Part shown: piece after piece, positions 112-11,663 of the stretch
Numbering within the stretch: position 1 is the first letter of the stretch
How the letters are laid out: every line of letters begins with the position of its first letter
Assembly (NCBI GenBank): GCA_043734795.1
Contig: JAYTEY010000338.1
Span: forward strand, 1-25,416
Source: Abditibacteriaceae bacterium
Lineage (GTDB): Bacteria; Armatimonadota; Abditibacteriia; Abditibacteriales; Abditibacteriaceae
Reading direction: 5' to 3'
DNA: 25,416 nucleotides
Made by a program: the position numbers and the translations under genes
The notes under the pieces: model-generated
Database searches by the model: none
What the model was told of the DNA's origin: nothing
What the model saw: the letters and a program-made list of their open reading frames with translations, nothing else

Positions 112-600
112 ATGACCTTTTTCTATCTCGATGCCGAAGCCACGACGTTTCAAAGCGCGCCCGACGGGACTTTGCGCGTGGTCGTGCCGGATCAAGTGTG
201 CGGTTTGCAGGTGCAGGCGCTGCGCGCTTTTCCGCTTTCTCACAACGAGGAGCACATCGTTTTGCGCGATGGCGCCAACAAGGAAATCGGGGTTTTGCGC
301 GACTTGAAAGCCTTGCCGCAAAACGCGCAGGAATTGGTGCGGGCGCAGCTTCATCGTCGCTATTTTCTGCCGCGCATTTTGAAAATCTACAGCGTTTTCG
401 AGCGTTTTGGCACGACGCAATGGGAACTCGAAACCGACCGCGGCTACCGCGAAATTACGACCAAACCGATCAACGACGCTTTGCACGAAATGTCGCCGGG
501 TCGCTATTTCATCACCGATAACGAAAACAATCGTTACGAAATCGAAAACCTGAGCGAACTCGACGAAGCCAGCCGCGCGCTGTTTCTGGGCAAAAGCTGA
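112..600 (+). CDS. DUF1854-like domain protein (162 aa)
   Basis: Recognisable pattern RAFPLS...EIG.L.DL..L...R.YFLPRI..I...W.LETDRG...ITD...NRYEI..L..LD..SR. Confidence 0.75.
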   Translation: MTFFYLDAEATTFQSAPDGTLRVVVPDQVCGLQVQALRAFPLSHNEEHIVLRDGANKEIGVLRDLKALPQNAQELVRAQLHRRYFLPRILKIYSVFERFGTTQWELETDRGYREITTKPINDALHEMSPGRYFITDNENNRYEIENLSELDEASRALFLGKS

Positions 601-627
601 ACACAGTTGGCGATTGCGCAATGACGA

Positions 628-641
628 ATCGAGTACTCGAT
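628..641. repeat. Iterated palindrome ATCGAGTACTCGAT (exact)
   Basis: Intergenic; extends to a 16-bp palindrome at 627-642. Confidence 0.95.
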
Positions 642-664
642 TGATGAAGTCCCGGGGGAAAACG

Positions 665-922
665 ATGACGATTTCTTACGAGCCGACGAGCGACGTTTTG
701 ACGATCACACTCGAAGCTGCGCCGCTTGCGCAAAGCCAGTTGCAAGGCACCGTTTCCGTGGGCCTTGCGGCGAACGGCGCACCGGTTTCAGTCGCGGTTT
801 CGCAAGCCAGCACGTTGCTGTGGGAGCACGGCGGCCAGGTCAGCGTAATGCTGCCGCAAACCGTCGTGACGCAAGTCGTGCTCATCTCGCAAGTCGTGGA
901 AACGCGCGTTGTCGAACTATGA
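665..922 (+). CDS. DUF2283-like small protein (85 aa)
   Basis: GGGGGAA RBS-like sequence before ATG 665; N-terminus MTISYEPTSDVLTITL resembles the DUF2283 pattern M.I.YD...D.L.I.L. Confidence 0.55.
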   Translation: MTISYEPTSDVLTITLEAAPLAQSQLQGTVSVGLAANGAPVSVAVSQASTLLWEHGGQVSVMLPQTVVTQVVLISQVVETRVVEL

Positions 923-943: not shown

Positions 944-2725
944 TCAATTGGGAACGAGCGCATTGAGAATCGCGTTTTGCAGCGCTTTTTCGTCGCCGAA
1001 CGGCACGATTTGAACGCCGTCGAGGTCATTCAATCCGCACGCGGCTGTCGCGATAATCGGCACGCCGCGGCTCCACGCTTCGAGCAAAAAACGCGGACAA
1101 TCTTCAGCCAAAGCCGGTTGTACAACAGCTGCGACCTGATTTATCCACGCATCACACCGCGATTTTTCGACGCGCCGCGTTTTCAGGCCGCGCCAGAAAT
1201 CGTCGCCTTCCAGTTCGCTTCCCCAAAGCCACACTTCTAACTTCAGCGCGCGCGCGACTTCGCGCAACTCGTAAGCGCCTTTGCGCGCGGCTGTCGGGCC
1301 GGGAAAAAGCACGATTCGATTTCGTGTCGTCACTCGTTGCTGGCGCGTTTGGGTTTTCCAACTCAAATCGAGTACTCGATTGGCGAATAAAACCGCGATT
1401 TTTGGGTGCGGCGAAACCAGAAATCGCGCGTTTTGGAGCGCGGTTCGTTCGGTTTCAACCAGCTTTTGCGGCGCGCGAAACTCGCGCAGGGTGGCGCGTT
1501 CGGGGTGAATGGCGCTTTGTGCGTCCAGTCGGCGATGCAGTTCGTGAAAAGGCAGACGCGTCATCAAGACATCGAAAGTGCGACCGCCCAGGGCACCGTC
1601 GCGCCACAAAAACGGCAGAAAGCTTTGCGCGACAACGACATGTGTCGCATCGTGCGCCAGTTTTTTCGCCAAAGCGCGACTCAAAAGTTCTGTCGTTTCG
1701 AGTTGCGCGTTCAAACGTTGCGCGCCCAAATTGCCCTGGCGCCGCGCTTGAAAGCTGCGCCACAAAGCCGCCGTTCGCGCTTCAAAAACTGTCTTGAAAT
1801 CGTGGGTTTTCCACGAATTGCGCGCGCGTTTTCCTACCCAACTTTCGGCTCGCAGTGGAACCAGAACGTCGTCATCGCCGCCGATTTGGGCGCGCACAAA
1901 ATCTTGCCATTCCGGCCAGGGTTCATCCAACAGAAAAGCGGTTTTGCCGACAACCGTCTCGCTTTCACGATGGCGAAAACACGCGGTTTGCGCGCACGAA
2001 GCGCAACTGTGAACCGGGACATCGAGCCGCGGACGCGCGGTTTTTTGCGGCTCAAACACGACGTTTGGCGCGGCTGGCTTGGGCGTTTTCGCCCACAATT
2101 GGACGACCAGTTCGTCGCGTGTCAGGGAAGTTCGCAGCAGCAAATCGCACGGCGCGCGAAAGCGAAAATCGACGTAATTCCAGGCGACTGTCGCGTCGCG
2201 CCCGCTTTGCGCCTGCGAGCCGGGAACGATTTGCGAATGCGCGTGGCGCTCGACGATTTCGAGTTGCGCCTGCAACGCTACATCATAAAGCGCATTCGAC
2301 AACTGGCACAAACCGCCGCCAACTGCGGGCATCAAACAGCCTTCGCGCAGCAAGCGGCCACGTGCAAAACCGCGCCGAGTTGTCGCTCGCCCGACTTGCT
2401 TCCAAAAGCTGAAAACCTGCCCGCCAGGAATCAGAACGCGGTTCAAGCGCCGAGAGGCGACACGCAAGTTCTGCACTTTGCCGATTTGCAGCGCGCGTTC
2501 GGACTGGGTTTCGTCGTTCCACAAAGCCGTGCGCGACTGCGCGTGCAACATCGAGTACTCGATTGTGTCATCGCTTGGTTTCCAGCGCCGCACATTGCGC
2601 ACGACATCGAAAAACGCGCGCCGCATCTGATGAACGGTCGCTTTCGCGTGAAAGATCGCGGCTTCGCGGCGTGTCGGAAGGCGGCGCGAATCGGGCTGCG
2701 TCGGGATTTTCGCGGAAGGTTTCAT
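944..2725 (-). CDS. VanW-family domain fused to a C-terminal glycosyltransferase-like (GT-B/GT4-type) domain (593 aa)
   Basis: VanW motifs NLRVA...FSFWKQVG...GGGLCQLSNALY...ERHAHS...DATVAWNYVDFRF; C-terminal RKGAYEL...QPALAEDCPRFLLEAWSRGVPIIAT resembles the GT4 nucleotide-sugar-binding half. Confidence 0.75.
   Translation of the reverse strand: MKPSAKIPTQPDSRRLPTRREAAIFHAKATVHQMRRAFFDVVRNVRRWKPSDDTIEYSMLHAQSRTALWNDETQSERALQIGKVQNLRVASRRLNRVLIPGGQVFSFWKQVGRATTRRGFARGRLLREGCLMPAVGGGLCQLSNALYDVALQAQLEIVERHAHSQIVPGSQAQSGRDATVAWNYVDFRFRAPCDLLLRTSLTRDELVVQLWAKTPKPAAPNVVFEPQKTARPRLDVPVHSCASCAQTACFRHRESETVVGKTAFLLDEPWPEWQDFVRAQIGGDDDVLVPLRAESWVGKRARNSWKTHDFKTVFEARTAALWRSFQARRQGNLGAQRLNAQLETTELLSRALAKKLAHDATHVVVAQSFLPFLWRDGALGGRTFDVLMTRLPFHELHRRLDAQSAIHPERATLREFRAPQKLVETERTALQNARFLVSPHPKIAVLFANRVLDLSWKTQTRQQRVTTRNRIVLFPGPTAARKGAYELREVARALKLEVWLWGSELEGDDFWRGLKTRRVEKSRCDAWINQVAAVVQPALAEDCPRFLLEAWSRGVPIIATAACGLNDLDGVQIVPFGDEKALQNAILNALVPN
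1367..1380. repeat. Iterated palindrome (exact)
   Basis: In the VanW-GT CDS, read as RVLD. Confidence 0.95.
2550..2563. repeat. Iterated palindrome (exact)
   Basis: In the VanW-GT N-terminal region, read as IEYS. Confidence 0.95.
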
Positions 2726-2775: not shown

Positions 2776-2788
2776 TGTTATAATTATA
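2776..2788. promoter_or_regulatory. Extended -10 (TGtTATAAT, +) overlapping a minus-strand TATAAT
   Basis: TGTTATAAT at 2776-2784; TATAATTATA (2779-2788) is self-complementary; lies in the 72-bp gap between divergent genes. Confidence 0.55.
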
Positions 2789-2797
2789 GCCGCCACG

Positions 2798-3343
2798 ATG
2801 AATCGCTCTCACACTTCAAAACCTAAAAACGCGCGCGCGCCGCAGCATCGCGCCGCGCGTTTTCGTGGCGCCAGTGCGCTGCTGGCGACGGCGATGTTGC
2901 TGCTCGCTTTTGCGCCGTTTCAAAGTGCCAACGCCGATTCGCTGAAAAGTTTCAACGCGCAATGGGCGCAGGTTTCGTCCAGCTTGGTTTCTTCGCTGGG
3001 CGCGACCGATGAGGCGACCGCGCGCGTTCAAAGCGAGCAGTTGTTCTTGTGGATGCAAACGCGCGTTGCATCGTTCGAGAATCCGCAAGGTTTGTCGGTC
3101 GGCCAGTTCGTCGCTTTGCTCGATGAATGGCGCCAAACCGAGCGCGGCAAAATCAGCGTTCCCCAAATTCACGCCAAGACGAAACAACCGCAATCGAGTA
3201 CTCGATTGCGCGCGAGTTCGTTTCTCGAGCTTGCTTTCGCGCCACAAATTGCCACTTTCAACCCGCGCTCTCATGCGCCGTTTTCTTCTTCTCATGCCGC
3301 CGCGAAACTTTCCGGCGTGCGCACCAATCGTCGTCACGAATAG
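2798..3343 (+). CDS. Exported protein with Sec signal peptide directly upstream of secA; candidate SecM-like monitor peptide (181 aa)
   Basis: Basic n-region, hydrophobic ASALLATAMLLLAFAPF, ANA-D cleavage site; C-terminus FSSSHAAAKLSGVRTNRRHE. This is the last 181 codons of track ORF 1406..3343. Confidence 0.7.
   Translation: MNRSHTSKPKNARAPQHRAARFRGASALLATAMLLLAFAPFQSANADSLKSFNAQWAQVSSSLVSSLGATDEATARVQSEQLFLWMQTRVASFENPQGLSVGQFVALLDEWRQTERGKISVPQIHAKTKQPQSSTRLRASSFLELAFAPQIATFNPRSHAPFSSSHAAAKLSGVRTNRRHE
3193..3206. repeat. Iterated palindrome (exact)
   Basis: In the secA-upstream ORF, read as SSTR; extends to a 22-bp palindrome at 3189-3210. Confidence 0.95.
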
Positions 3344-3466
3344 CTTTCAGTTGTCGGTGTTCAGTGTTCGGTGGCCAGTTCCATCGCGCTGCGCCGCGCT
3401 TCGTCGCGCCTGACAATCAATAACCCAATTTCAAAAACCGCGAGAAATCTCGCCTGGAGACACACG

Positions 3467-6400
3467 ATGTTGAACTTGAAACATTTGTTCGGCGGCAAGC
3501 CGAAAGACGAAGACGCAAAGTCGGGCGCCGTTCAACTGGCGCCCGGAGCGCAGACGCCCGGAATCGCCGGAGCCGTCGCCAAACTGTTCGACAAAAACGA
3601 ACAAGAAGTCGCCAAACTGCGCCCGACAGTCGAACGCGTCAACACCCTGGCCGCTGAACTCAAAGCGTTGTCCGACGAAGAACTCAAAGCGCGTTCGCAA
3701 AAGCTGCGCGAAACTTTCCAGGAAATCGTGACGCAAAAACTGTCGCGTTCGCGCAACGCGGAAGGCGAAGCGTTCGGCTGGCAGGAACTGGCGACGGAAA
3801 TGGACTGGAGCGACGAATATCATCGCGCGCGCAAAGCCGCGGAAAAAGAAACGCTGGAAGAATTGCTGCCCGAAGCGTTTGCGCTCACGCGCGAAGCCGG
3901 CGACCGCACGATCGGGCTGCGTCACTTCGATGTGCAGCTCATCGGCGGCGCGGTTTTGCACAGCGGCCGCATCGGCGAAATGCGCACCGGCGAAGGGAAA
4001 ACGCTTGTTGCCACGCTGCCGACGTACCTCAATGCGCTCAGCGGGCGCGGCGTTCACGTCGTCACAGTCAACGATTATCTGGCCGAGCGCGACGCCAACT
4101 GGATGCGCCCGATTTATGAATTCTTGGGACTCAGCGTCGCGTTTTTGACCAACGACCTGGAAAACGACGCGCGCAAACCCGCTTATGCGTGCGACGTTTT
4201 GTATGGCACCAACAGCGAGTTCGGCTTCGATTATCTGCGCGACAACATGGCGCGCACGTCCGACGACATGGTGCAGCGCGCGCTCAACTTCGCCATCGTC
4301 GATGAAGTCGATAACATCCTGATCGACGAAGCGCGCACGCCTTTGATTATCTCGGCGCAGGTCGCCAAAACCGACCGCGCTTTGCGGCGCCAGCAGATGG
4401 CGAAAACCTGCGACGGTCTGGCGCGCAACCTCATGCCCGCCGTCACCGACCGCGAAATCGAAAACCTGCAAGACAGTCTGACTGAGCGCGGGCGCATCGA
4501 CATCGACGGCTTGATGCGCGAAATTCTCAAAAACGGCGCCTTCGATCAGGCCGCGAGCTATCTTGTCGATTCCTACTTAATAGGCGAACGCAGCGCGCGC
4601 GTGGAAAACGCGTCGCACCTGCTCGATGTCGCAATCGAGTACTCGAATGCCGGTTTGATCGACGCCGCAGGCCGTGATCATCTGCAAAACATCGCGGTCG
4701 AAGCGGTTCATCCCGACCGTTTGCGCGACGCCTGGACTCAAGAAATCGCGCGCCTGAGCGAACCGTTCGCGCAAGCATTCGCGTTCAACATGGAAGAAGG
4801 CAACGCGCGCGCGCTGGCGATGTCGCTCGATTTGGGCGACGACGCGAGCATCGAATTCGCGCCGCGACTGGACGAAACCCAAAGCAAAATGCCGGTCGTC
4901 GCGCAAATCGTCGCCGAAGAAATGGCGCGCCGCAACCTGGTTTCCGAAGGCGCAGTTGCGGACGTTTCGGCTGCTCTGTTGGGCGCGGGGAATTCGCCCC
5001 AAGCGATTCATTCGGCGTTAATGGAAGCGGTTTTGGCATCGCCCGGCGGCGTTCAGGAAGCCGACGCTTTGCTGCATGAAGCGGTCGCGGAAAGCGGCGC
5101 AATCGGCGGCATCAAGAACGAGGACAGCGCGCGTCGCATCATCGGCGCGCTGGAAGAAGTTTCGCTGCGCGGACTTTTGCCTTTCGAGACCGGCGAGCGT
5201 TTGTGGGAATCGGTGAAATTAACGCAAGGCCGCGACGCTTTGCGCAGCGAGATTGCGCGCACAGTCGAAGCGCATCCGGGCGAAGCCGCGCAAAAAATCG
5301 CGCAACTGGCAAACGAGTACTCGAACGCGCGCCAGGCGTTCTTGCAAACCGAATCGGAGACTTTGAAGTCGCAGTTGGGCGCTTATGAAATCGTGGCGAA
5401 GCAGGCGCGAAACGGTGCAACGGCCAACGCGTTGCGCGCGACTCTGCAAAGCGAAATCGGCAAAAGCGGCGCGTTCGGCGAAGCGACCAAGCTGGTGAAA
5501 AACTTCGTGCGCGAGCAAAATCGCGCGCACGAATCTTTGGCCGGAAGTTTGGCCGAAGAAATGGCGCAGTGGGTCGAAGTTCCGCGCGACGCCAACAAAA
5601 TTCTGGCGCAACTGTTCGGCGAAGGCGGCAAAACCGGCGAAGTGCGCGAGCGCATTCTGTTGGCTGTGCGTGATTTGCCCGGCGAAAATACCGAGCTTCC
5701 CGCGCTGATCGGCGAAAGCGTGCGCCAACTTCAAGAATGGCGCAGCGAACACGCGCATCTTTTGGTGACGGAAATTAGCGAGCGTGTCGAGCTTCCCGCC
5801 GAATCGAGTACTGGAATTGTGGCCGCGATTGAAAACGGCGAGTTCGCGGGCAATTTGGAAGATTTCATCGGCGAGCAGCTGCTGGCTTCTCCGCAAATCG
5901 CGCTTCAAGCGCAGGCGATTGACGAATTCGGCGCGCGCCTGGCGGCTTTCGAAGACGAATCCGACACGCAAATCCTGAGTTCGATTCATGACGTTTTGCC
6001 TTTGTCGGACGACGCGCGCGACGCCTTGCAGGAAACGCTGGACGCGACCGAAACCGATCTGCACAAAGCGATTTTCGGGACTTTGGCCGCCGACGCCGTG
6101 AGCCGCCATCTGGAGCCATTGTTGACCGAAGAAAACGCGGTCGCTTTTGCCGAAGAAGTGACGCGGCGTTTGCCGCTGGCGAAAAACGTCCGCAAGCGCG
6201 TCAAGGCGAACGCGTTCGTCGGTCGTTCCGCCGAGCAGCTGATGCGCGCGATCGTGCGTTTGGTGCAGGAAACTTTCGCGGTCGTGCAAGTCGATGAAGG
6301 TGTCGGCGAAGACAGCCTGAAACGCGTCGTGCGCAACCTGGGCTGGCTGGTCGAAAAAGACGAGAAACGTCGCCAGGCGGCGCTGACCGACATGGGAACT

Positions 6401-9400
6401 TTGGTCGCCGAGCGCGAAGCCGGAACGCCCGCCTTTAGCGACCCGGAAAATTTCCTGGAAACGCTGGTCTCCAACGAAATTTTGACCGAAGACGAAGCCG
6501 CCGTTTTGCGTCGCGCGCAAGCCGAAAACCCAAATGACACGATTTCGACAACAGTCGATCGAGTGCTGCGTTTGCCTGCCGACCGCCGCCGCCGTTTGGC
6601 CGAAGCCAAGCTGCAAGAGATTCAGCCGGTTTTGGATCAGGCGGTCAAGGCGCACGCGCTGTTTCACCGCGAAGTGCATTACGTCATCGCCAGCAACCCG
6701 GAAACCGGCAAGCAGGAAATCGTCATCGTCGACGAATTTACAGGCCGCAAAATGCCGGGACGCCGCTTCAGCGAAGGCTTGCACGAAGCCTTGGAAGGCA
6801 AACACGATTTGGAAGTCCAATTGGAATCTCAAACGGTTGCGACGGTCACGATTCAGAATTATTTCCGGCTTTATAACAAGCTGGGCGGCATGACGGGAAC
6901 CGCGAAAACCGAAGAAGCCGAGTTCGCCAAAACCTATGGCATCGAGGTCGTTTCGATCCCGACCAACCGCCAGATCAAGCGCCGCGACTTTCCCGATGTC
7001 GTCTACAAAACCGCCGAAGCCAAGTTCCGCGCGATTACGTTCGAGATTTTGGAACATCATTGCGCCGGTCAGCCGGTTTTGGTCGGAACGCGCAGCGTCG
7101 AGGTTTCGGAACGCATGAGCGAGCGTTTGAAAGCGCAGCCTTTGCAGCTTTTGGCCTTGCAGCAATTGATCAAGTCGAAGTTGTGGGATGACAAAAGCGT
7201 GCCCGCCGACCAAAAAGCCGAGATCGTGCAAGGCTTGAATACGCCGATCGCGCAGCTCAACATGATGCAGGTCAAAGCCGTCGCGCGTCAGTTCAGCATC
7301 AATCCCGACGCCAATCACGAAGACAACATCAACGCGCTGCTGGGTTTGTTCACGGTCGCTAACCCCAGCCGCGAAAAGCTCGAAACCGCGCTCAAAGTCG
7401 GCTTGCCGCACAACGTTTTGAACGCCAAAAACCATCGCAACGAAGCGCGCATCGTCGCCGAAGCCGCGCGCCCCGCGAGCGTCACGATCGCGACCAACAT
7501 GGCCGGTCGCGGCGTCGATATCGTTTTGGGCGGAACGCTTGACGTTGAATCGCGCTGGCGCGTGATGACGCTGCAAACCTTGGCGCGCGCGTTGGAAAAC
7601 AAAAGCGTGCAGGTGCGTTCGCGCAACGAAGAAACCACGCAAAAGTTCGTCGAACGATTGGCGCCCGAGCGTTTGCAGGATTTGGCGTGGATGAGTTTGA
7701 TGACGCAAACCGTCGATCAGTTGGAGCGCGAAGGCAAGCTGCAAGGCCAGATCGCCAAAGAACTGCGCGACACCCTGGCGCAGGAACTGACGACGCCCGA
7801 CCTGAAAAACAAAGTCCGTTCGCGCGCGCGGCGCTTGAACTTGCTGGATCAATTGCCGCTGGACGCCGCGCCGATGGACGACAATCGAGTACTCGATGCG
7901 CTCAACAACGACTTCAAGCGCTTGATGAACTTGAGCTTTCCCAACGAACAGCTTTTGATGGCGCTATCGAATGGCGTTTCGAGCCGCGCGACGGGACGCG
8001 ATCCGGGCGAAAGCGCTTTGCTGATGGCGCTTTCGCGGCCTCTTTCGATTGCACAAAACTCGTGCGAACGTTTGCTCGAAGTGTTGGACGAAACGCCCGA
8101 TCTGGACGAAATGCTGCTCGAAGCCGCGTCGCAATCCGCCGATTTGGGATATGCGCAGTCGTTCCTCGATTTGGCTTCACAGCTTCCCCACGTCACGCCG
8201 GAATGGGTCGAAGGCGAACTGAAACTGTTCAACGTGAGCAATGCCGCCGACGCCAAACGAGTACTCGATTTGCGCCAGAACACGCGCAAAGAAACCAACG
8301 AAGCGCAGATTCTCGCCGAACTGGGCGAACAAAATCTGGGTTTGCAATGGCTGCGCGAACGCTTGCGCGAATGGAACGTGGCGAGCGAAGCGCGCGCATT
8401 TCAAGCGACGCCCGAACTTCAGGAAATGCTCGGCGACAGTGCCGTCGTGCACTTGAAACTGGACAAAGAGCGCGTCGCAGCTTTGCGCAAAGAATGGCAA
8501 AACGGCGGCGATCATCGGCGCGCTTTGGTCACAGTCGAGGCGCCGAACCTGATTTTGCTGGGCGATGTCGCCGAAGTCGCCGGACACGACGCGCCATTTC
8601 TGCATCCTGAATGGATGCACGCGACGATGGTGCAGCTCGATTTACTCACGGGCGACGACGTTTTTGAAGCGCAGATCATGGGTCAAGCCGAAGACGAAGC
8701 GGGCAACTTGCAGGAAATGCCGATCGACGTTCTGGTCTACCGCATTCGACTCAATCGAGTACTCGATGCGCTGGCTCCCACGCTGCGCGAAGCCGTGCAA
8801 ATCGTCGGAAGCGAACCGAAAGACGTGTTGCGCGAGTTGGAGCGCCAGGCGCCGTGGGCAGCGCAATTCATCGACGAAAATTGGGTTGCGGGCAAACTGC
8901 AAAGCCTCGATATGACGAGCGTGCCGGTTCAAAGCGGCGCGCCGGTTCGCATCGAAACCGGCGTGGCCGGACAAAGCGCCGACATCGTTTTGGAAGGCGA
9001 AGCGCGCGCGGAAGACATTGCGCACACGTCCGAGCAAGACGAAGTGAAAGCTTCGGGCGGTTTGCACATCATCGGAACCGAGCGCCACGAAAGCCGCCGC
9101 ATTGACAATCAGTTGAGAGGCCGCGCCGGTCGTCAGGGCGATCCGGGTTCTTCGCGTTTCTATGTTTCTCTGGAAGACGAATTGTGGCGTTTGTTCGGCG
9201 TGCGCGGACAAGGGCTTTTGAACAAATGGGACGAGGACGAAGCGGTCGAGCATCCGATGATTTCTAAGAGCGTCGAGCGCGCGCAAAAGAAAGTCGAGCT
9301 GAATCACTTTGAAGGCCGCAAAAACGTTTTGCAATATGACGACGTGATGAACGTGCAGCGCGAAGTGATTTACCGCGAGCGCCGTCGCGCGCTTTTGGGC

Positions 9401-10249
9401 GGCGACTTGCGCGATACAGTTCTCGATATGGCGCAGCAGGCGGCACTTTCCGAAGCCGAAAAACAGTGTCCGCGGGCGGTTCGTTCCGAGGAATGGGACA
9501 AGCACAAACTCTTCGTCGGATTGGGTCGTTTGTTCGGCGCGTCCTTGCTGCACAAGCATTTGCAGGAAGACGAACTCGCGGCAATCGCCAACCGCGACGA
9601 GATCGACGAGCGCTTGATGGAAGTTGCCGAGGCTTGCTACAACGCGCGCGAAACCGAAATGGGCGAGGAAAACTTGCGCAGTCTGGAAGCGTGGCAAGTC
9701 ACGCGTTCAATAGACGAGTATTGGATGGAACATCTGGCGGAAATGGACTATCTGCGCGACGCGATCTGGCAGGAAGGCTATGCGCAGAAAGAGCCGATCG
9801 GCGTTTATCGCCAGGAAGGTTTCGCCCTGTTCCAAAAGATGCAGGACGAGATTCGGCGCGAAGTCACAGAAGCGGTTTTTTCGGCGCAAAACGAAATGTC
9901 GCTGGATGACTTCGCTTATGGCGGCCCGGAACTGAGCGAGTTGCAAGAAGCGCGTTTGGTGCAAATGATGCCGATGGACGACGGCGGAATCGAAGACGGC
10001 GCCTTGCTGGACAAAGACGCCGACGGCGATGACGACGAAGAAATCCTGGTTTCCAGTTCGCCGATGACGATTCCCAATGCGCCCAATCGCGAAGTGGCGA
10101 CACAATCGAGTACTCGATTGCAAAGCGGCGGCTCGGTTTCGGGCAACTCGTTTCCTGGCGCGAACAATGGCGGAACAAACAGCGGCAATCAACCGCTGAG
10201 TCGGGCAGAACGGCGCGCGCGTGAACGCGACGGCAAAAAGCGCGGTTGA
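3467..10249 (+). CDS. secA: Preprotein translocase ATPase SecA, giant form (~2260 aa) with large insertions
   Basis: GGAGA RBS before ATG 3467. Motifs in SecA order: [50 protein letters not shown]...[101 protein letters not shown]. Confidence 0.97.
4634..4647. repeat. Iterated palindrome (1 mismatch, ATCGAGTACTCGAA)
   Basis: In the SecA PPXD insertion, read as IEYS. Confidence 0.85.
5312..5325. repeat. Iterated palindrome (2 mismatches, AACGAGTACTCGAA)
   Basis: In the SecA PPXD insertion, read as NEYS. Confidence 0.7.
5803..5816. repeat. Iterated palindrome (2 mismatches, ATCGAGTACTGGAA)
   Basis: In the SecA PPXD insertion, read as SSTG; the same variant occurs as reverse complement at 18205. 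Confidence 0.7.
7884..7897. repeat. Iterated palindrome (exact)
   Basis: In the SecA VAR insertion, read as RVLD. Confidence 0.95.
8256..8269. repeat. Iterated palindrome (1 mismatch, AACGAGTACTCGAT)
   Basis: In the SecA VAR insertion, read as RVLD. Confidence 0.85.
8754..8767. repeat. Iterated palindrome (exact)
   Basis: In the SecA VAR insertion, read as RVLD. Confidence 0.95.
10105..10118. repeat. Iterated palindrome (exact)
   Basis: In the SecA C-terminal tail, read as SSTR; extends to 18 bp at 10103-10120. Confidence 0.95.
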
Positions 10250-11635: not shown

Positions 11636-11639
11636 AGCA

Positions 11640-11653
11640 ATCGAGTACTCGAT
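11640..11653. repeat. Iterated palindrome (exact)
   Basis: Begins 4 bp after the SDR stop; 16-bp form. Confidence 0.95.
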
Positions 11654-11663
11654 TAGCGTCGAT

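What the first reader, a model, noticed from the sequence alone, without database searches (positions are those of the whole stretch)
2798..3343. Candidate SecM-like secretion-monitor (translation-arrest) peptide upstream of secA
Seen: a 181-aa ORF on the same strand, ending 123 bp before the secA ATG. It has a long basic n-region, a hydrophobic core, an ANA-D signal-peptidase site, and ends FSSSHAAAKLSGVRTNRRHE-stop. Established: E. coli SecM (170 aa, long signal peptide, upstream of secA) stalls ribosomes at FxxxxWIxxxxGIRAGP a few codons before its stop, and this controls secA translation. MifM, VemP and the ApcA/ApdA/ApdP peptides are analogous monitors upstream of yidC/sec genes. Here F and G-[IV]-R keep the same 11-residue spacing as in SecM and lie a similar distance from the stop, but W-I and the RAGP/RAPP proline are absent. 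Inference: this may be a new class of arrest peptide. A weak switch is possible at the secA RBS, where TCTC 3448-3451 can pair with GAGA 3442-3445 or with the SD GAGA 3457-3460.
Basis: partly seen in the sequence, partly recalled or inferred. Interest (0 to 1): 0.8.

Follow-up and report, generated by a model that had tools for sequence, protein, structure and literature searches.

The report
Conserved exported leader peptide before secA
A 181-codon gene for a small exported peptide sits just ahead of the protein-export motor gene secA in every Abditibacteriaceae genome examined, and its strictly conserved, proline-free tail a fixed distance from the stop codon makes it a good but untested candidate for a new ribosome-stalling secretion sensor.

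Summary
The ORF at 2798-3343 is real and as described: 181 aa, a signal peptide (ANA|D), the stated tail, and 123 nt to the secA ATG.

All 25 Abditibacteriaceae genomes (6 genera) with a readable upstream ORF, and a fragment in a 26th, carry a same-strand exported ORF directly before their giant secA. The middle is unalignable (6-9% identity). The last 19 codons are conserved (51%). The consensus is L..H-E/A-A-A-x-L-S-G-[VTI]-R-T-N-R-R-x-x-stop, with no indel before the stop.

A conserved extended -10 box precedes the ORF, and none lies between it and secA. The ORF meets all four published in-silico criteria for Sec "monitoring substrates".

It is not a SecM homologue, and it has no W-I, no proline and no RAPP-like motif. 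The SecM-like F spacing is coincidental, and the proposed RBS switch is not supported.

Many relatives have a terminator-like or long hairpin starting at the stop codon. This window's intergenic RNA folds no better than shuffles.

Stalling is untested. The motif is absent from the arrest-peptide surveys I could search. The scan has noted analogous secA leaders in other phyla, none related in sequence.

The parts
2776..2784 (+). Extended -10 promoter box TGTTATAAT, 13 nt before the ORF's ATG. This predicts a near-leaderless mRNA.
   Evidence: Read. A TGnTA[TA]A[AC]T box lies 19-44 nt upstream of the ORF start in 26 of 31 related loci. None lies in 5144 nt of ORF-secA spacers or in 15171 nt of the ORFs. 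Only 29 TGnTATAAT copies occur in the 2.38-Mb genome.
2798..3343 (+). Leader ORF (181 codons plus TAG). Candidate secretion-monitor peptide.
2798..2935 (+). Predicted Sec-type signal peptide. Basic n-region (residues 1-24, net +7), hydrophobic core (25-41), A-N-A|D cleavage site after residue 46.
   Evidence: Heuristic hydropathy, charge and AxA scan. The core ASALLATAMLLL is invariant in close homologues, with 43 synonymous versus 6 non-synonymous codon differences. AF2 predicts a helix at 26-43. No SignalP-type tool was available.
3035..3058 (+). Early-mature conserved motif EQLFLWMQ (residues 80-87). The family consensus is [AV]-V-L-x-W-L-Q.
   Evidence: Alignments A1 and A3. It lies in a helix with pLDDT about 80.
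3164..3274 (+). Divergent, predicted-disordered linker (residues 123-159). It carries one copy of the genome-wide palindrome at 3191-3208, translated as QSSTRL.
   Evidence: pLDDT 37-43. Inter-genus identity is 6-9%. Palindrome located.
3293..3328 (+). Conserved C-terminal motif H166-A-A-A-K-L-S-G-V-R-T-N177. The family consensus is H-E/A-A-A-x-L-S-G-[VTI]-R-T-N at positions -16 to -5 from the stop.
   Evidence: Right-aligned codon table of 25 genomes. G at -9 in 24/25, N at -5 in 22/25, L at -11 and S at -10 in 21/25. Synonymous variation at L (5 codons), S (TCN and AGC), V, H and N. Inter-genus identity is 51%.
3326..3343 (+). Last five codons AAT-CGT-CGT-CAC-GAA plus TAG. The spacer between the motif and the stop is always four codons, and the codons are non-preferred.
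   Evidence: No indel in the last 19 codons in 25 genomes. In neighbouring secA genes AAT is 24% of Asn codons and CGC is 74% of Arg codons. At position -5, AAT is used in 14/22. At -4/-3, non-CGC Arg codons are used in 24/32.
3344..3466 (+). ORF-secA spacer (123 nt) with no significant structure and no promoter-like box.
   Evidence: strand folding z = -0.36. No -10-like hexamer. No + strand terminator in the spacer.
3440..3459 (+). Small hairpin GCGAG-AAAT-CTCGC (3440-3453), followed by the secA Shine-Dalgarno GGAG (3456-3459).
   Evidence: Conserved in the 8 closest loci. One locus keeps the stem through G-U pairs, and there are no compensatory changes (alignment A2). The SD is not inside the stem.
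3467..10249 (+). Giant secA (2260 aa), the presumed regulated gene.
   Evidence: All SecA Pfam domains found. A giant secA was found in 27/27 family genomes (open frame 2153-2356 aa wherever the contig was long enough).

Best explanation
The ORF is the leader peptide of a promoter-leader-secA transcription unit and acts as a secretion monitor of the SecM/VemP kind, built on an unrelated, proline-free arrest module.

Shown:
- It is a conserved, exported, fast-evolving peptide.
- Only its signal peptide, a short early-mature motif and its last 19 residues are constrained.
- The tail motif keeps a fixed four-codon distance to the stop.
- The ORF is always upstream of secA and has its own conserved promoter.

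Inferred:
- The tail H-x-A-A-x-L-S-G-V-R-T-N, lying in the ribosomal exit tunnel, halts the ribosome within the last five codons (N177 to the stop). Non-preferred AAT-CGT-CGT codons would help.
- When the signal peptide, about 130 residues ahead, is engaged by SecA/SecYEG, the pulling force releases the stall.
- When export is slow, the ribosome stays parked over the end of the ORF. It then keeps the RNA that starts at the stop codon from folding.
- In most relatives that RNA is the 5' arm of a terminator-like hairpin or of a long hairpin reaching the secA start. Read-through or translation of secA would therefore rise.

The last coupling step is the weakest. In this window itself no significant RNA structure is predicted.
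For: (1) Linkage. A same-strand ORF of 130-207 aa lies 103-259 nt before secA in 25 of 25 family genomes with a readable upstream ORF. A 26th genome holds the motif in a broken 43-codon frame. The gene upstream of the ORF differs between relatives: VanW on the opposite strand, or a 145-aa ORF on the same strand.
(2) Architecture. All have a basic n-region, a strongly hydrophobic core (mean Kyte-Doolittle 2.1-3.5) and an AxA-type site. The spacer from the signal to the motif is far above 30 aa.
(3) Tail. Inter-genus identity is 51% in positions -19 to -5 and 30% in the last four residues, against 6-9% in the preceding 60 residues. There are no indels in the last 19 codons. Synonymous variation, including TCN/AGC serine codons, points to selection on the peptide.
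(4) Non-preferred codons are enriched at -5, -4 and -3.
(5) The extended -10 box is conserved before the ORF in 26/31 loci and absent from all ORF-secA spacers.
(6) In 8-9 loci of one genus, a hairpin whose base includes the last 2 nt of the stop codon is followed by a U-tract. The stems differ by compensatory changes. For one such locus dG is -44 kcal/mol and z is -8.1; for the closest complete genome z is -5.1. In other loci a long hairpin runs from the stop to 8-17 nt before the secA ATG.
(7) The motif occurs once in six-frame translation of the window's genome, so it is not a general sorting tag.
(8) Other families of the same GTDB phylum carry RPP-type leader ORFs before secA. Fujiwara 2024 reports RDGP and RAPP leaders in Fimbriimonadales and Armatimonadales. 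Leader-peptide control of secA is therefore common in this part of the tree.
Against: - No stalling data exist, and the motif has none of the residues known to inhibit the peptidyl-transferase centre (no Pro, no RAPP/RAGP).
- The secA SD is not sequestered. Imposing a stalled ribosome at codon -5 or at the stop did not raise predicted RBS accessibility in most loci.
- The window's own spacer has no significant fold (z -0.36) and no U-tract terminator.
- A hairpin plus U-tract after a stop codon is also what an ordinary gene end looks like.
- Within the closest clade the tail has few synonymous changes (9, against 43 in the signal core), and ACC is used for Thr in 18/18. Some constraint may therefore be on the nucleotides.
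- Two genomes of one genus have a degenerate motif.
- Residues 46-115 are predicted as three helices with pLDDT 65-82, so the peptide might have a function of its own.
Confidence: 0.6

Rival explanations
1. The ORF encodes an ordinary small exported protein with its own extracytoplasmic function. The conserved tail would be a binding or processing motif. The gene merely neighbours secA, or is co-transcribed with it, and no ribosome stalling occurs.
For: AF2 predicts three helices at residues 46-115 with pLDDT 65-82, and the motif [AV]VLxWLQ is conserved there. Terminator-like hairpins follow the stop in many relatives, as at ordinary gene ends. The secA RBS is predicted to be accessible regardless.
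Against: The mature part is unalignable between genera, while secA N-termini stay 73-90% identical. Linkage to secA is invariant although the upstream neighbour changes. The tail keeps an exact distance to the stop and uses non-preferred codons. The tail is short, basic and unique in the genome, unlike known sorting signals. No family, structure-atlas or annotation hit was found.
Confidence: 0.2
2. The conserved 3' end of the ORF is mainly an RNA or DNA cis-element of the secA leader, such as a processing site, a protein-binding site or part of an attenuator. On this view the peptide conservation is a by-product.
For: In the closest clade the 12 motif codons show only 9 synonymous differences, against 43 in the signal-peptide core. 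ACC is used in 18/18, GAA in 24/24 and GCC in 15/16 at fixed positions, above background usage of 0.51, 0.74 and 0.42. A small GCCG...CGGC hairpin is predicted inside the motif-coding stretch in several loci.
Against: Across genera, third positions vary freely at L-19, H-16, A-13, L-11, S-10 (including TCN to AGC), V-8, N-5 and R-4/-3, while the amino acids stay the same. Replacements are conservative (V/T/I, E/A). Position -12 varies at all three bases. The frame and the stop distance are fixed. No promoter-like box or significant fold is present there.
Confidence: 0.1
3. The ORF is a classical leader peptide. On this view ribosome occupancy near the stop, set by slow decoding of rare Asn/Arg codons rather than by a nascent-chain arrest, gates the downstream hairpin.
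For: Non-preferred AAT, CGT, CGG and AGG codons are enriched at -5 to -3. Hairpins start at the stop codon.
Against: This rival does not explain the conserved signal peptide. It does not explain the 12 conserved residues before the rare codons or the exclusive association with secA. Arg/Asn sensing has no evident link to secretion.
Confidence: 0.05

Closest known systems
SecM (secM-secA, Escherichia coli and other Gammaproteobacteria)
   Same: It is an exported peptide of similar size (170 vs 181 aa) with a long signal peptide, encoded directly upstream of secA on the same strand. It has a conserved C-terminal stretch of about 17 residues a few codons before the stop (4 after the arrest-site Pro166 in SecM, 4 after N177 here). 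Both share a G-[IV]-R tripeptide. The SecM description is taken from PMC10987492.
   Different: There is no sequence homology (no Pfam hit, SecM family included). There is no conserved F, no W-I and no RAGP proline. The secA SD is not inside a stem-loop, and a modelled stall does not unmask it. Many relatives have a terminator-like hairpin instead.
VemP (Vibrio alginolyticus, upstream of secD2F2)
   Same: It is an exported monitor with a proline-free arrest segment, HRISGWKETNAMYVALNSQ, followed by three residues and the stop (PMC5449182). There is a loose local resemblance: H...S-G-W-K-E-T-N versus H...S-G-V-R-T-N. An Ala-rich segment here is predicted helical at low confidence, and VemP stalls through helix formation in the tunnel.
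   Different: The resemblance is short, needs a one-residue offset and lies at a different distance from the stop. The downstream gene and the lineage differ. Homology was not shown.
RAPP-like leader peptides of Armatimonadota (uA_RQH_Fimbriimonadales, uA_RQH_Armatimonadales; Fujiwara et al. 2024, PMC10987492)
   Same: They are signal-bearing uORFs directly upstream of secA in the same GTDB phylum. I found further F-[WRQ]-R-P-P-[TN]-x-stop leaders before another family's giant secA.
   Different: Those end in RDGP, RAPP or RPP. The Abditibacteriaceae tail has no proline in the last 16 residues in 24 of 25 genomes. It is not listed in that paper's text or in the supplements held.
[quoted passage not shown]
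   Same: The conserved motif is at a fixed distance from the stop. Stalling with the stop codon in the A site is established for the uA/uDF examples (PMC10987492). A ribosome at the stop would cover the hairpin base seen in relatives.
   Different: Those motifs abut the stop, mostly with a C-terminal proline. Here the last four residues are only moderately conserved (30% inter-genus identity), and all three stop codons are used.

Membership tests
Sec/YidC monitoring substrates (regulatory arrest peptides; criteria of Sakiyama 2021 and Fujiwara 2024) | Small ORF of no annotated function directly upstream of secA, secDF or yidC | tested here: met
   No Pfam, NCBIfam or Atlas hit. The ORF is same-strand and 103-259 nt before secA in 25/25 genomes with a readable upstream ORF.
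Sec/YidC monitoring substrates (regulatory arrest peptides; criteria of Sakiyama 2021 and Fujiwara 2024) | N-terminal secretion signal or transmembrane segment | tested here: met
   Basic n-region, 12-residue core with mean hydropathy 2.1-3.5, and an AxA-type site in all 25. This is a heuristic result only, because no dedicated predictor was available.
Sec/YidC monitoring substrates (regulatory arrest peptides; criteria of Sakiyama 2021 and Fujiwara 2024) | C-terminal sequence conserved among homologues | tested here: met
   51% inter-genus identity at -19 to -5, against 6-9% upstream. Codon table.
Sec/YidC monitoring substrates (regulatory arrest peptides; criteria of Sakiyama 2021 and Fujiwara 2024) | Spacer of more than 30 residues between the localisation signal and the conserved C-terminus | tested here: met
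   About 120 residues in the window (A46 to H166). The shortest family members (130 aa) still have about 70 or more.
Sec/YidC monitoring substrates (regulatory arrest peptides; criteria of Sakiyama 2021 and Fujiwara 2024) | Nascent-chain-dependent translation arrest (peptidyl-tRNA, toeprint) | not testable with these tools
   This needs in vitro translation or ribosome profiling.
Sec/YidC monitoring substrates (regulatory arrest peptides; criteria of Sakiyama 2021 and Fujiwara 2024) | The stall is coupled to expression of the downstream gene through mRNA structure | tested here: inconclusive
   Terminator-like or long hairpins start at the stop codon in many relatives. There is no consistent RBS unmasking and no significant fold in this window.
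SecM family (Pfam SecM; motif FxxxxWIxxxxGIRAGP) | Sequence homology to SecM | tested here: not met
   0 Pfam families at E <= 0.01. The homologues found are all Abditibacteriaceae-type.
SecM family (Pfam SecM; motif FxxxxWIxxxxGIRAGP) | Arrest motif with F, W-I and R-A-G-P | tested here: not met
   Only G-[VTI]-R is shared. Position -20 (F in the window) is variable, and there is no W-I and no Pro.
RAPP-like (RQH) arrest peptides | [RQH]-[AG]-P-P, R-A-G-P or R-A-P-G near the C-terminus | tested here: not met
   No such motif was found. Proline is absent from the last 16 residues in 24/25 genomes.
Stop-codon-dependent arrest peptides (NSP-stop, NAP-stop, DGMK-stop) | Invariant residues immediately before the stop (usually Pro), with stalling when the stop is in the A site | tested here: not met
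   The last four residues vary (RRHE, SYLE, RRLI, RRRN, VRLN, SFPQ), and TAG, TGA and TAA are all used. The fixed motif-to-stop distance is met. The stall site itself is not testable.

The most novel reading that the evidence does not exclude
A proline-free arrest module (H-x-A-A-x-L-S-G-V-R-T-N plus four codons) stalls the ribosome at the very end of the leader. From there it gates an intrinsic terminator whose stem begins in the stop codon. That would make it a secretion monitor acting by transcription attenuation rather than by unmasking a ribosome-binding site, and it would set the level of a 2260-residue SecA.
Probability: 0.2. Interest if true: 0.75.

Novelty: new variant of a known kind. 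Interest (0 to 1): 0.52.

Why it matters
Secretion monitors are the best-understood examples of force-sensitive, nascent-chain-controlled gene regulation. Each new arrest motif has so far revealed a different way of silencing the ribosome.

This candidate comes from a barely studied lineage (Abditibacteriota in NCBI taxonomy; a class of Armatimonadota in GTDB). It has no proline and none of the described motifs in its tail. It keeps an exact four-codon distance to the stop and uses non-preferred codons there.

In many relatives it is followed by a terminator-like hairpin that starts in the stop codon. The arrest-peptide papers I could search describe RBS-sequestering stem-loops as the output, and none mentions an intrinsic terminator.

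The candidate is directly testable with standard arrest reporters. If confirmed, it would add a new arrest mechanism and possibly a new output logic. It would also show how a lineage with a giant SecA adjusts its export capacity.

Tried and rejected
- SecM homology: no Pfam hit, and the motif fails on F, W-I and Pro.
It lies about 100 nt from the ORF end, and the alternative pairing is 4 bp.
- SecM-style RBS unmasking: partition-function modelling was run with a ribosome footprint imposed at codon -5 or at the stop. It gave no consistent gain in RBS accessibility over 31 loci.
- Long-range pairing of the post-stop segment with the secA start region appeared in 14/31 minimum-energy folds. It is not robust to the folding window, so I do not rely on it.
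- General C-terminal sorting tag: the motif occurs once in the genome.
- Tat signal: an RR pair occurs in some genera but not in the window's clade. The spacing to hydrophobic residues does not fit the Tat consensus as I recall it, and the core is very hydrophobic.
- The tool's simple terminator scanner did not flag the long interrupted hairpins, so they rest on folding energies and my own script.
- AF2 gave only pLDDT 61, so no fold search was run.
- The ESM Atlas gave nothing.
- Class-level relatives outside the family showed no recognisable leader ORF in the flanks fetched.

Full report
**Observation**

The + strand ORF at 2798-3343 translates to 181 residues plus TAG.
- It starts with a 24-residue basic n-region (net +7).
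- A hydrophobic core follows at residues 25-41, then an A-N-A|D signal-peptidase site after residue 46.
- It ends ...FSSSHAAAKLSGVRTNRRHE.

The downstream frame is a 2260-residue SecA with all SecA Pfam domains. Its start is the ATG at 3467. This is fixed by the conserved N-terminus and by stop codons just upstream in relatives. The gap is therefore 123 nt.

**Is it a gene, and is it linked to secA?**

The protein has no Pfam, NCBIfam or Atlas match. It does have 15 homologues of 38-72% identity in public assemblies, and one is labelled Abditibacteriaceae. An exhaustive HMMER search found nothing further away.

I fetched the secA start region from all 27 genomes of the family held (6 genera). 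All have a giant secA.
- In 25 genomes a same-strand ORF of 130-207 aa lies 103-259 nt before secA.
- One locus starts inside secA and has no upstream DNA.
- One poor assembly carries the tail motif in a broken 43-codon frame.

The gene on the other side of the ORF varies. It is VanW on the opposite strand in the window and two relatives, and a 145-aa ORF on the same strand in others. The constant partner is therefore secA.

**Pattern of conservation**

The family alignment (A3) shows three constrained modules separated by unalignable sequence:
- the signal peptide;
- a short early-mature motif, [AV]-V-L-x-W-L-Q (EQLFLWMQ, residues 80-87, in the window);
- the last 19 residues.

I right-aligned the sequences without gaps and compared pairs from different genera.

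| Block (positions from the stop) | Inter-genus identity |
|---|---|
| -19 to -5 | 51% |
| last four residues | 30% |
| three preceding 20-residue blocks | 6-9% |

The consensus is L(-19)..H(-16)-E/A-A-A-x-L-S-G(-9)-[VTI]-R-T-N(-5)-R-R-[LH]-[EN]-stop. G is kept in 24/25 genomes and N in 22/25. No insertion or deletion occurs anywhere in the last 19 codons of the 25 genomes.

Selection acts on the peptide:
- L-19 and L-11 each use five codons.
- S-10 uses both TCN and AGC.
- V, H, N and the Arg codons vary at third positions.
- In the closest clade the signal-peptide core shows 43 synonymous against 6 non-synonymous codon differences.

Two caveats apply.
- In that same close clade the tail shows only 9 synonymous differences. 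ACC (18/18) and GAA (24/24) are used more uniformly than background usage of 0.51 and 0.74 predicts. Some nucleotide-level constraint cannot be excluded.
- Two genomes of one genus carry a degenerate tail.

The near-invariant S-S-T-R in the linker of close homologues is not a protein feature. It is the translation of a genome-wide palindrome copy at 3191-3208.

**Codon choice at the end**

In the neighbouring secA genes, AAC makes up 76% of Asn codons and CGC 74% of Arg codons.
- At position -5 the minor codon AAT is used in 14 of 22 cases.
- At -4/-3 the Arg codons are CGT, CGG or AGG in 24 of 32 cases.
- The window has AAT-CGT-CGT.

Slow decoding directly after the motif fits a programmed pause there. 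This is an inference.

**Transcription unit**

An extended -10 box lies 13 nt before the ORF's ATG (TGTTATAAT, 2776-2784), which predicts a near-leaderless mRNA.
- The same box (TGnTA[TA]A[AC]T) lies 19-44 nt upstream of the ORF start in 26 of 31 loci.
- It is absent from all 5144 nt of ORF-secA spacers and from the ORFs themselves.
- It is rare in the genome, with 29 copies in 2.38 Mb.

The only recognisable promoter thus drives the leader, and secA is most simply co-transcribed with it. The promoter rules of this lineage are not established, so this remains an inference.

**RNA between the ORF and secA**

In 8-9 loci of one genus, a strong hairpin starts in the last two bases of the stop codon.
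- It has a GC-rich base, and the stems differ between species by compensatory changes.
- A U-tract follows, and the hairpin ends 33-47 nt (about 65 in one locus) before the secA ATG.
- For one such locus dG is -44 kcal/mol and z is -8.1.

The closest complete genome has a similar hairpin plus UUUUU, starting 10 nt after the stop (z -5.1).

In other loci a long hairpin runs from the stop codon to 8-17 nt before the secA ATG.

A ribosome held over the last codons would cover or abut the 5' base of these structures. That would explain the fixed motif-to-stop distance.

Three results weaken this.
- The window's own 123-nt spacer folds no better than shuffles (z -0.36) and has no U-tract terminator.
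- The secA SD (GGAG, 3456-3459) lies just outside a small conserved hairpin (3440-3453) and is not sequestered.
- Imposing a ribosome footprint at codon -5 or at the stop did not consistently raise predicted RBS accessibility over 31 loci.

The coupling step is therefore plausible for relatives and unresolved for this locus.

**Other checks**

- The relaxed tail motif occurs in a long open frame next to a stop codon only once in six-frame translation of the 2.38-Mb genome. This argues against a general sorting tag.
- AlphaFold2 with the family alignment gives mean pLDDT 61. It predicts a signal helix, three helices at 46-115 (pLDDT 65-82), a disordered linker at 123-159 (about 40) and a short helix at 165-172. 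The model is too weak for a fold search.

**Comparison with what is known**

Fujiwara et al. 2024 (PMC10987492) define candidate monitoring substrates by four in-silico criteria, and all four are met here. Their survey of more than 30,000 genomes lists RDGP and RAPP leaders before secA in Fimbriimonadales and Armatimonadales. It lists nothing from Abditibacteriales, and the string GVRTN is absent from the text and the supplements held. No paper in the searchable library combines Abditibacteri* with "arrest peptide".

I also found F-[WRQ]-R-P-P-[TN]-x-stop leaders before the giant secA of another family of the phylum. Leader control of secA therefore seems common there, with different motifs in different families.

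| Known system | Relation to this ORF |
|---|---|
| SecM | Not a homologue; fails the SecM motif except for G-[VIT]-R |
| VemP (HRISGWKETN...) | Loose, offset resemblance; noted but not evidence of relatedness |
| Stop-codon arrest peptides | Share the idea of a fixed distance to the stop, but have invariant terminal residues, usually Pro |

The known secretion monitors described in these papers act by RBS-sequestering stem-loops. None of the papers returned contains "intrinsic terminator".

**Verdict**

The most likely reading (about 0.6) is a new, proline-free secretion-monitor leader controlling secA. It is restricted, so far, to Abditibacteriaceae.

Rivals:
- an ordinary exported protein (0.2);
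- a nucleotide-level cis-element (0.1);
- a rare-codon leader without nascent-chain arrest (0.05).

Stalling, the stall site and the output mechanism all need experiments. The scan has recorded analogous untested secA leaders in sphingomonads, Acidobacteria and Aminicenantes, but none shares sequence with this one.

Noticed in passing
window, 15 sites (e.g. 626-643, 3191-3208, 10103-10120, 11638-11655): The palindrome ATCGAGTACTCGAT, often extended to CAATCGAGTACTCGATTG, occurs 15 times in the window where 0 are expected. It occurs 1321 times in the 2.38-Mb genome, about one per 1.8 kb, inside genes as well as between them. In coding frames it reads S-S-T-R, which explains the 'invariant' SSTR in the leader's linker and in relatives' n-regions.
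   Followed up: partly
window 3467-10249; loci L005-L031, L038, L042, L043, L055-L058: SecA is giant (open frame 2153-2356 aa wherever the contig is long enough) in all 27 Abditibacteriaceae genomes, and about 2140-2280 aa in four class-level relatives. In another family of the phylum it is about 2500-2600 aa. Most other families have about 1000-1200 aa.
   Followed up: partly
L040, L042, L043 (another family of the same GTDB phylum): Signal-bearing ORFs directly upstream of that family's giant secA end in F-[WRQ]-R-P-P-[TN]-[AI]-stop. These are RAPP-like arrest-peptide candidates.
   Followed up: no
window 2776-2798 and the same position in 26 of 31 related loci: A conserved extended -10 box lies so close to the leader's ATG in the window's clade (10-13 nt) that the mRNA should be leaderless or nearly so. 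No Shine-Dalgarno sequence precedes the leader ORF.
   Followed up: partly
window 3440-3453: The small hairpin GCGAG-N4-CTCGC, 2-3 nt before the secA Shine-Dalgarno, is conserved in the 8 closest loci. One locus keeps it through G-U pairs. Its function is unknown. On the minus strand it scores as terminator-like.
   Followed up: partly
L013 (spacer between leader ORF and secA): A tandem heptamer repeat (CCCAACA, about 10 copies) fills the leader-secA spacer in one genome. Other relatives carry very large perfect palindromes there (dG -88 to -126 kcal/mol), which look like inserted REP/MITE-type elements on top of the terminator stem.
   Followed up: no
window 112-922 and loci L059-L065: The upstream synteny is DUF1854 gene, then a DUF2283-like gene, then (in some relatives) a 145-aa ORF, then the leader and secA. 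In the window and two relatives a divergent VanW/glycosyltransferase fusion gene (944-2725, minus strand) sits next to the leader instead.
   Followed up: no
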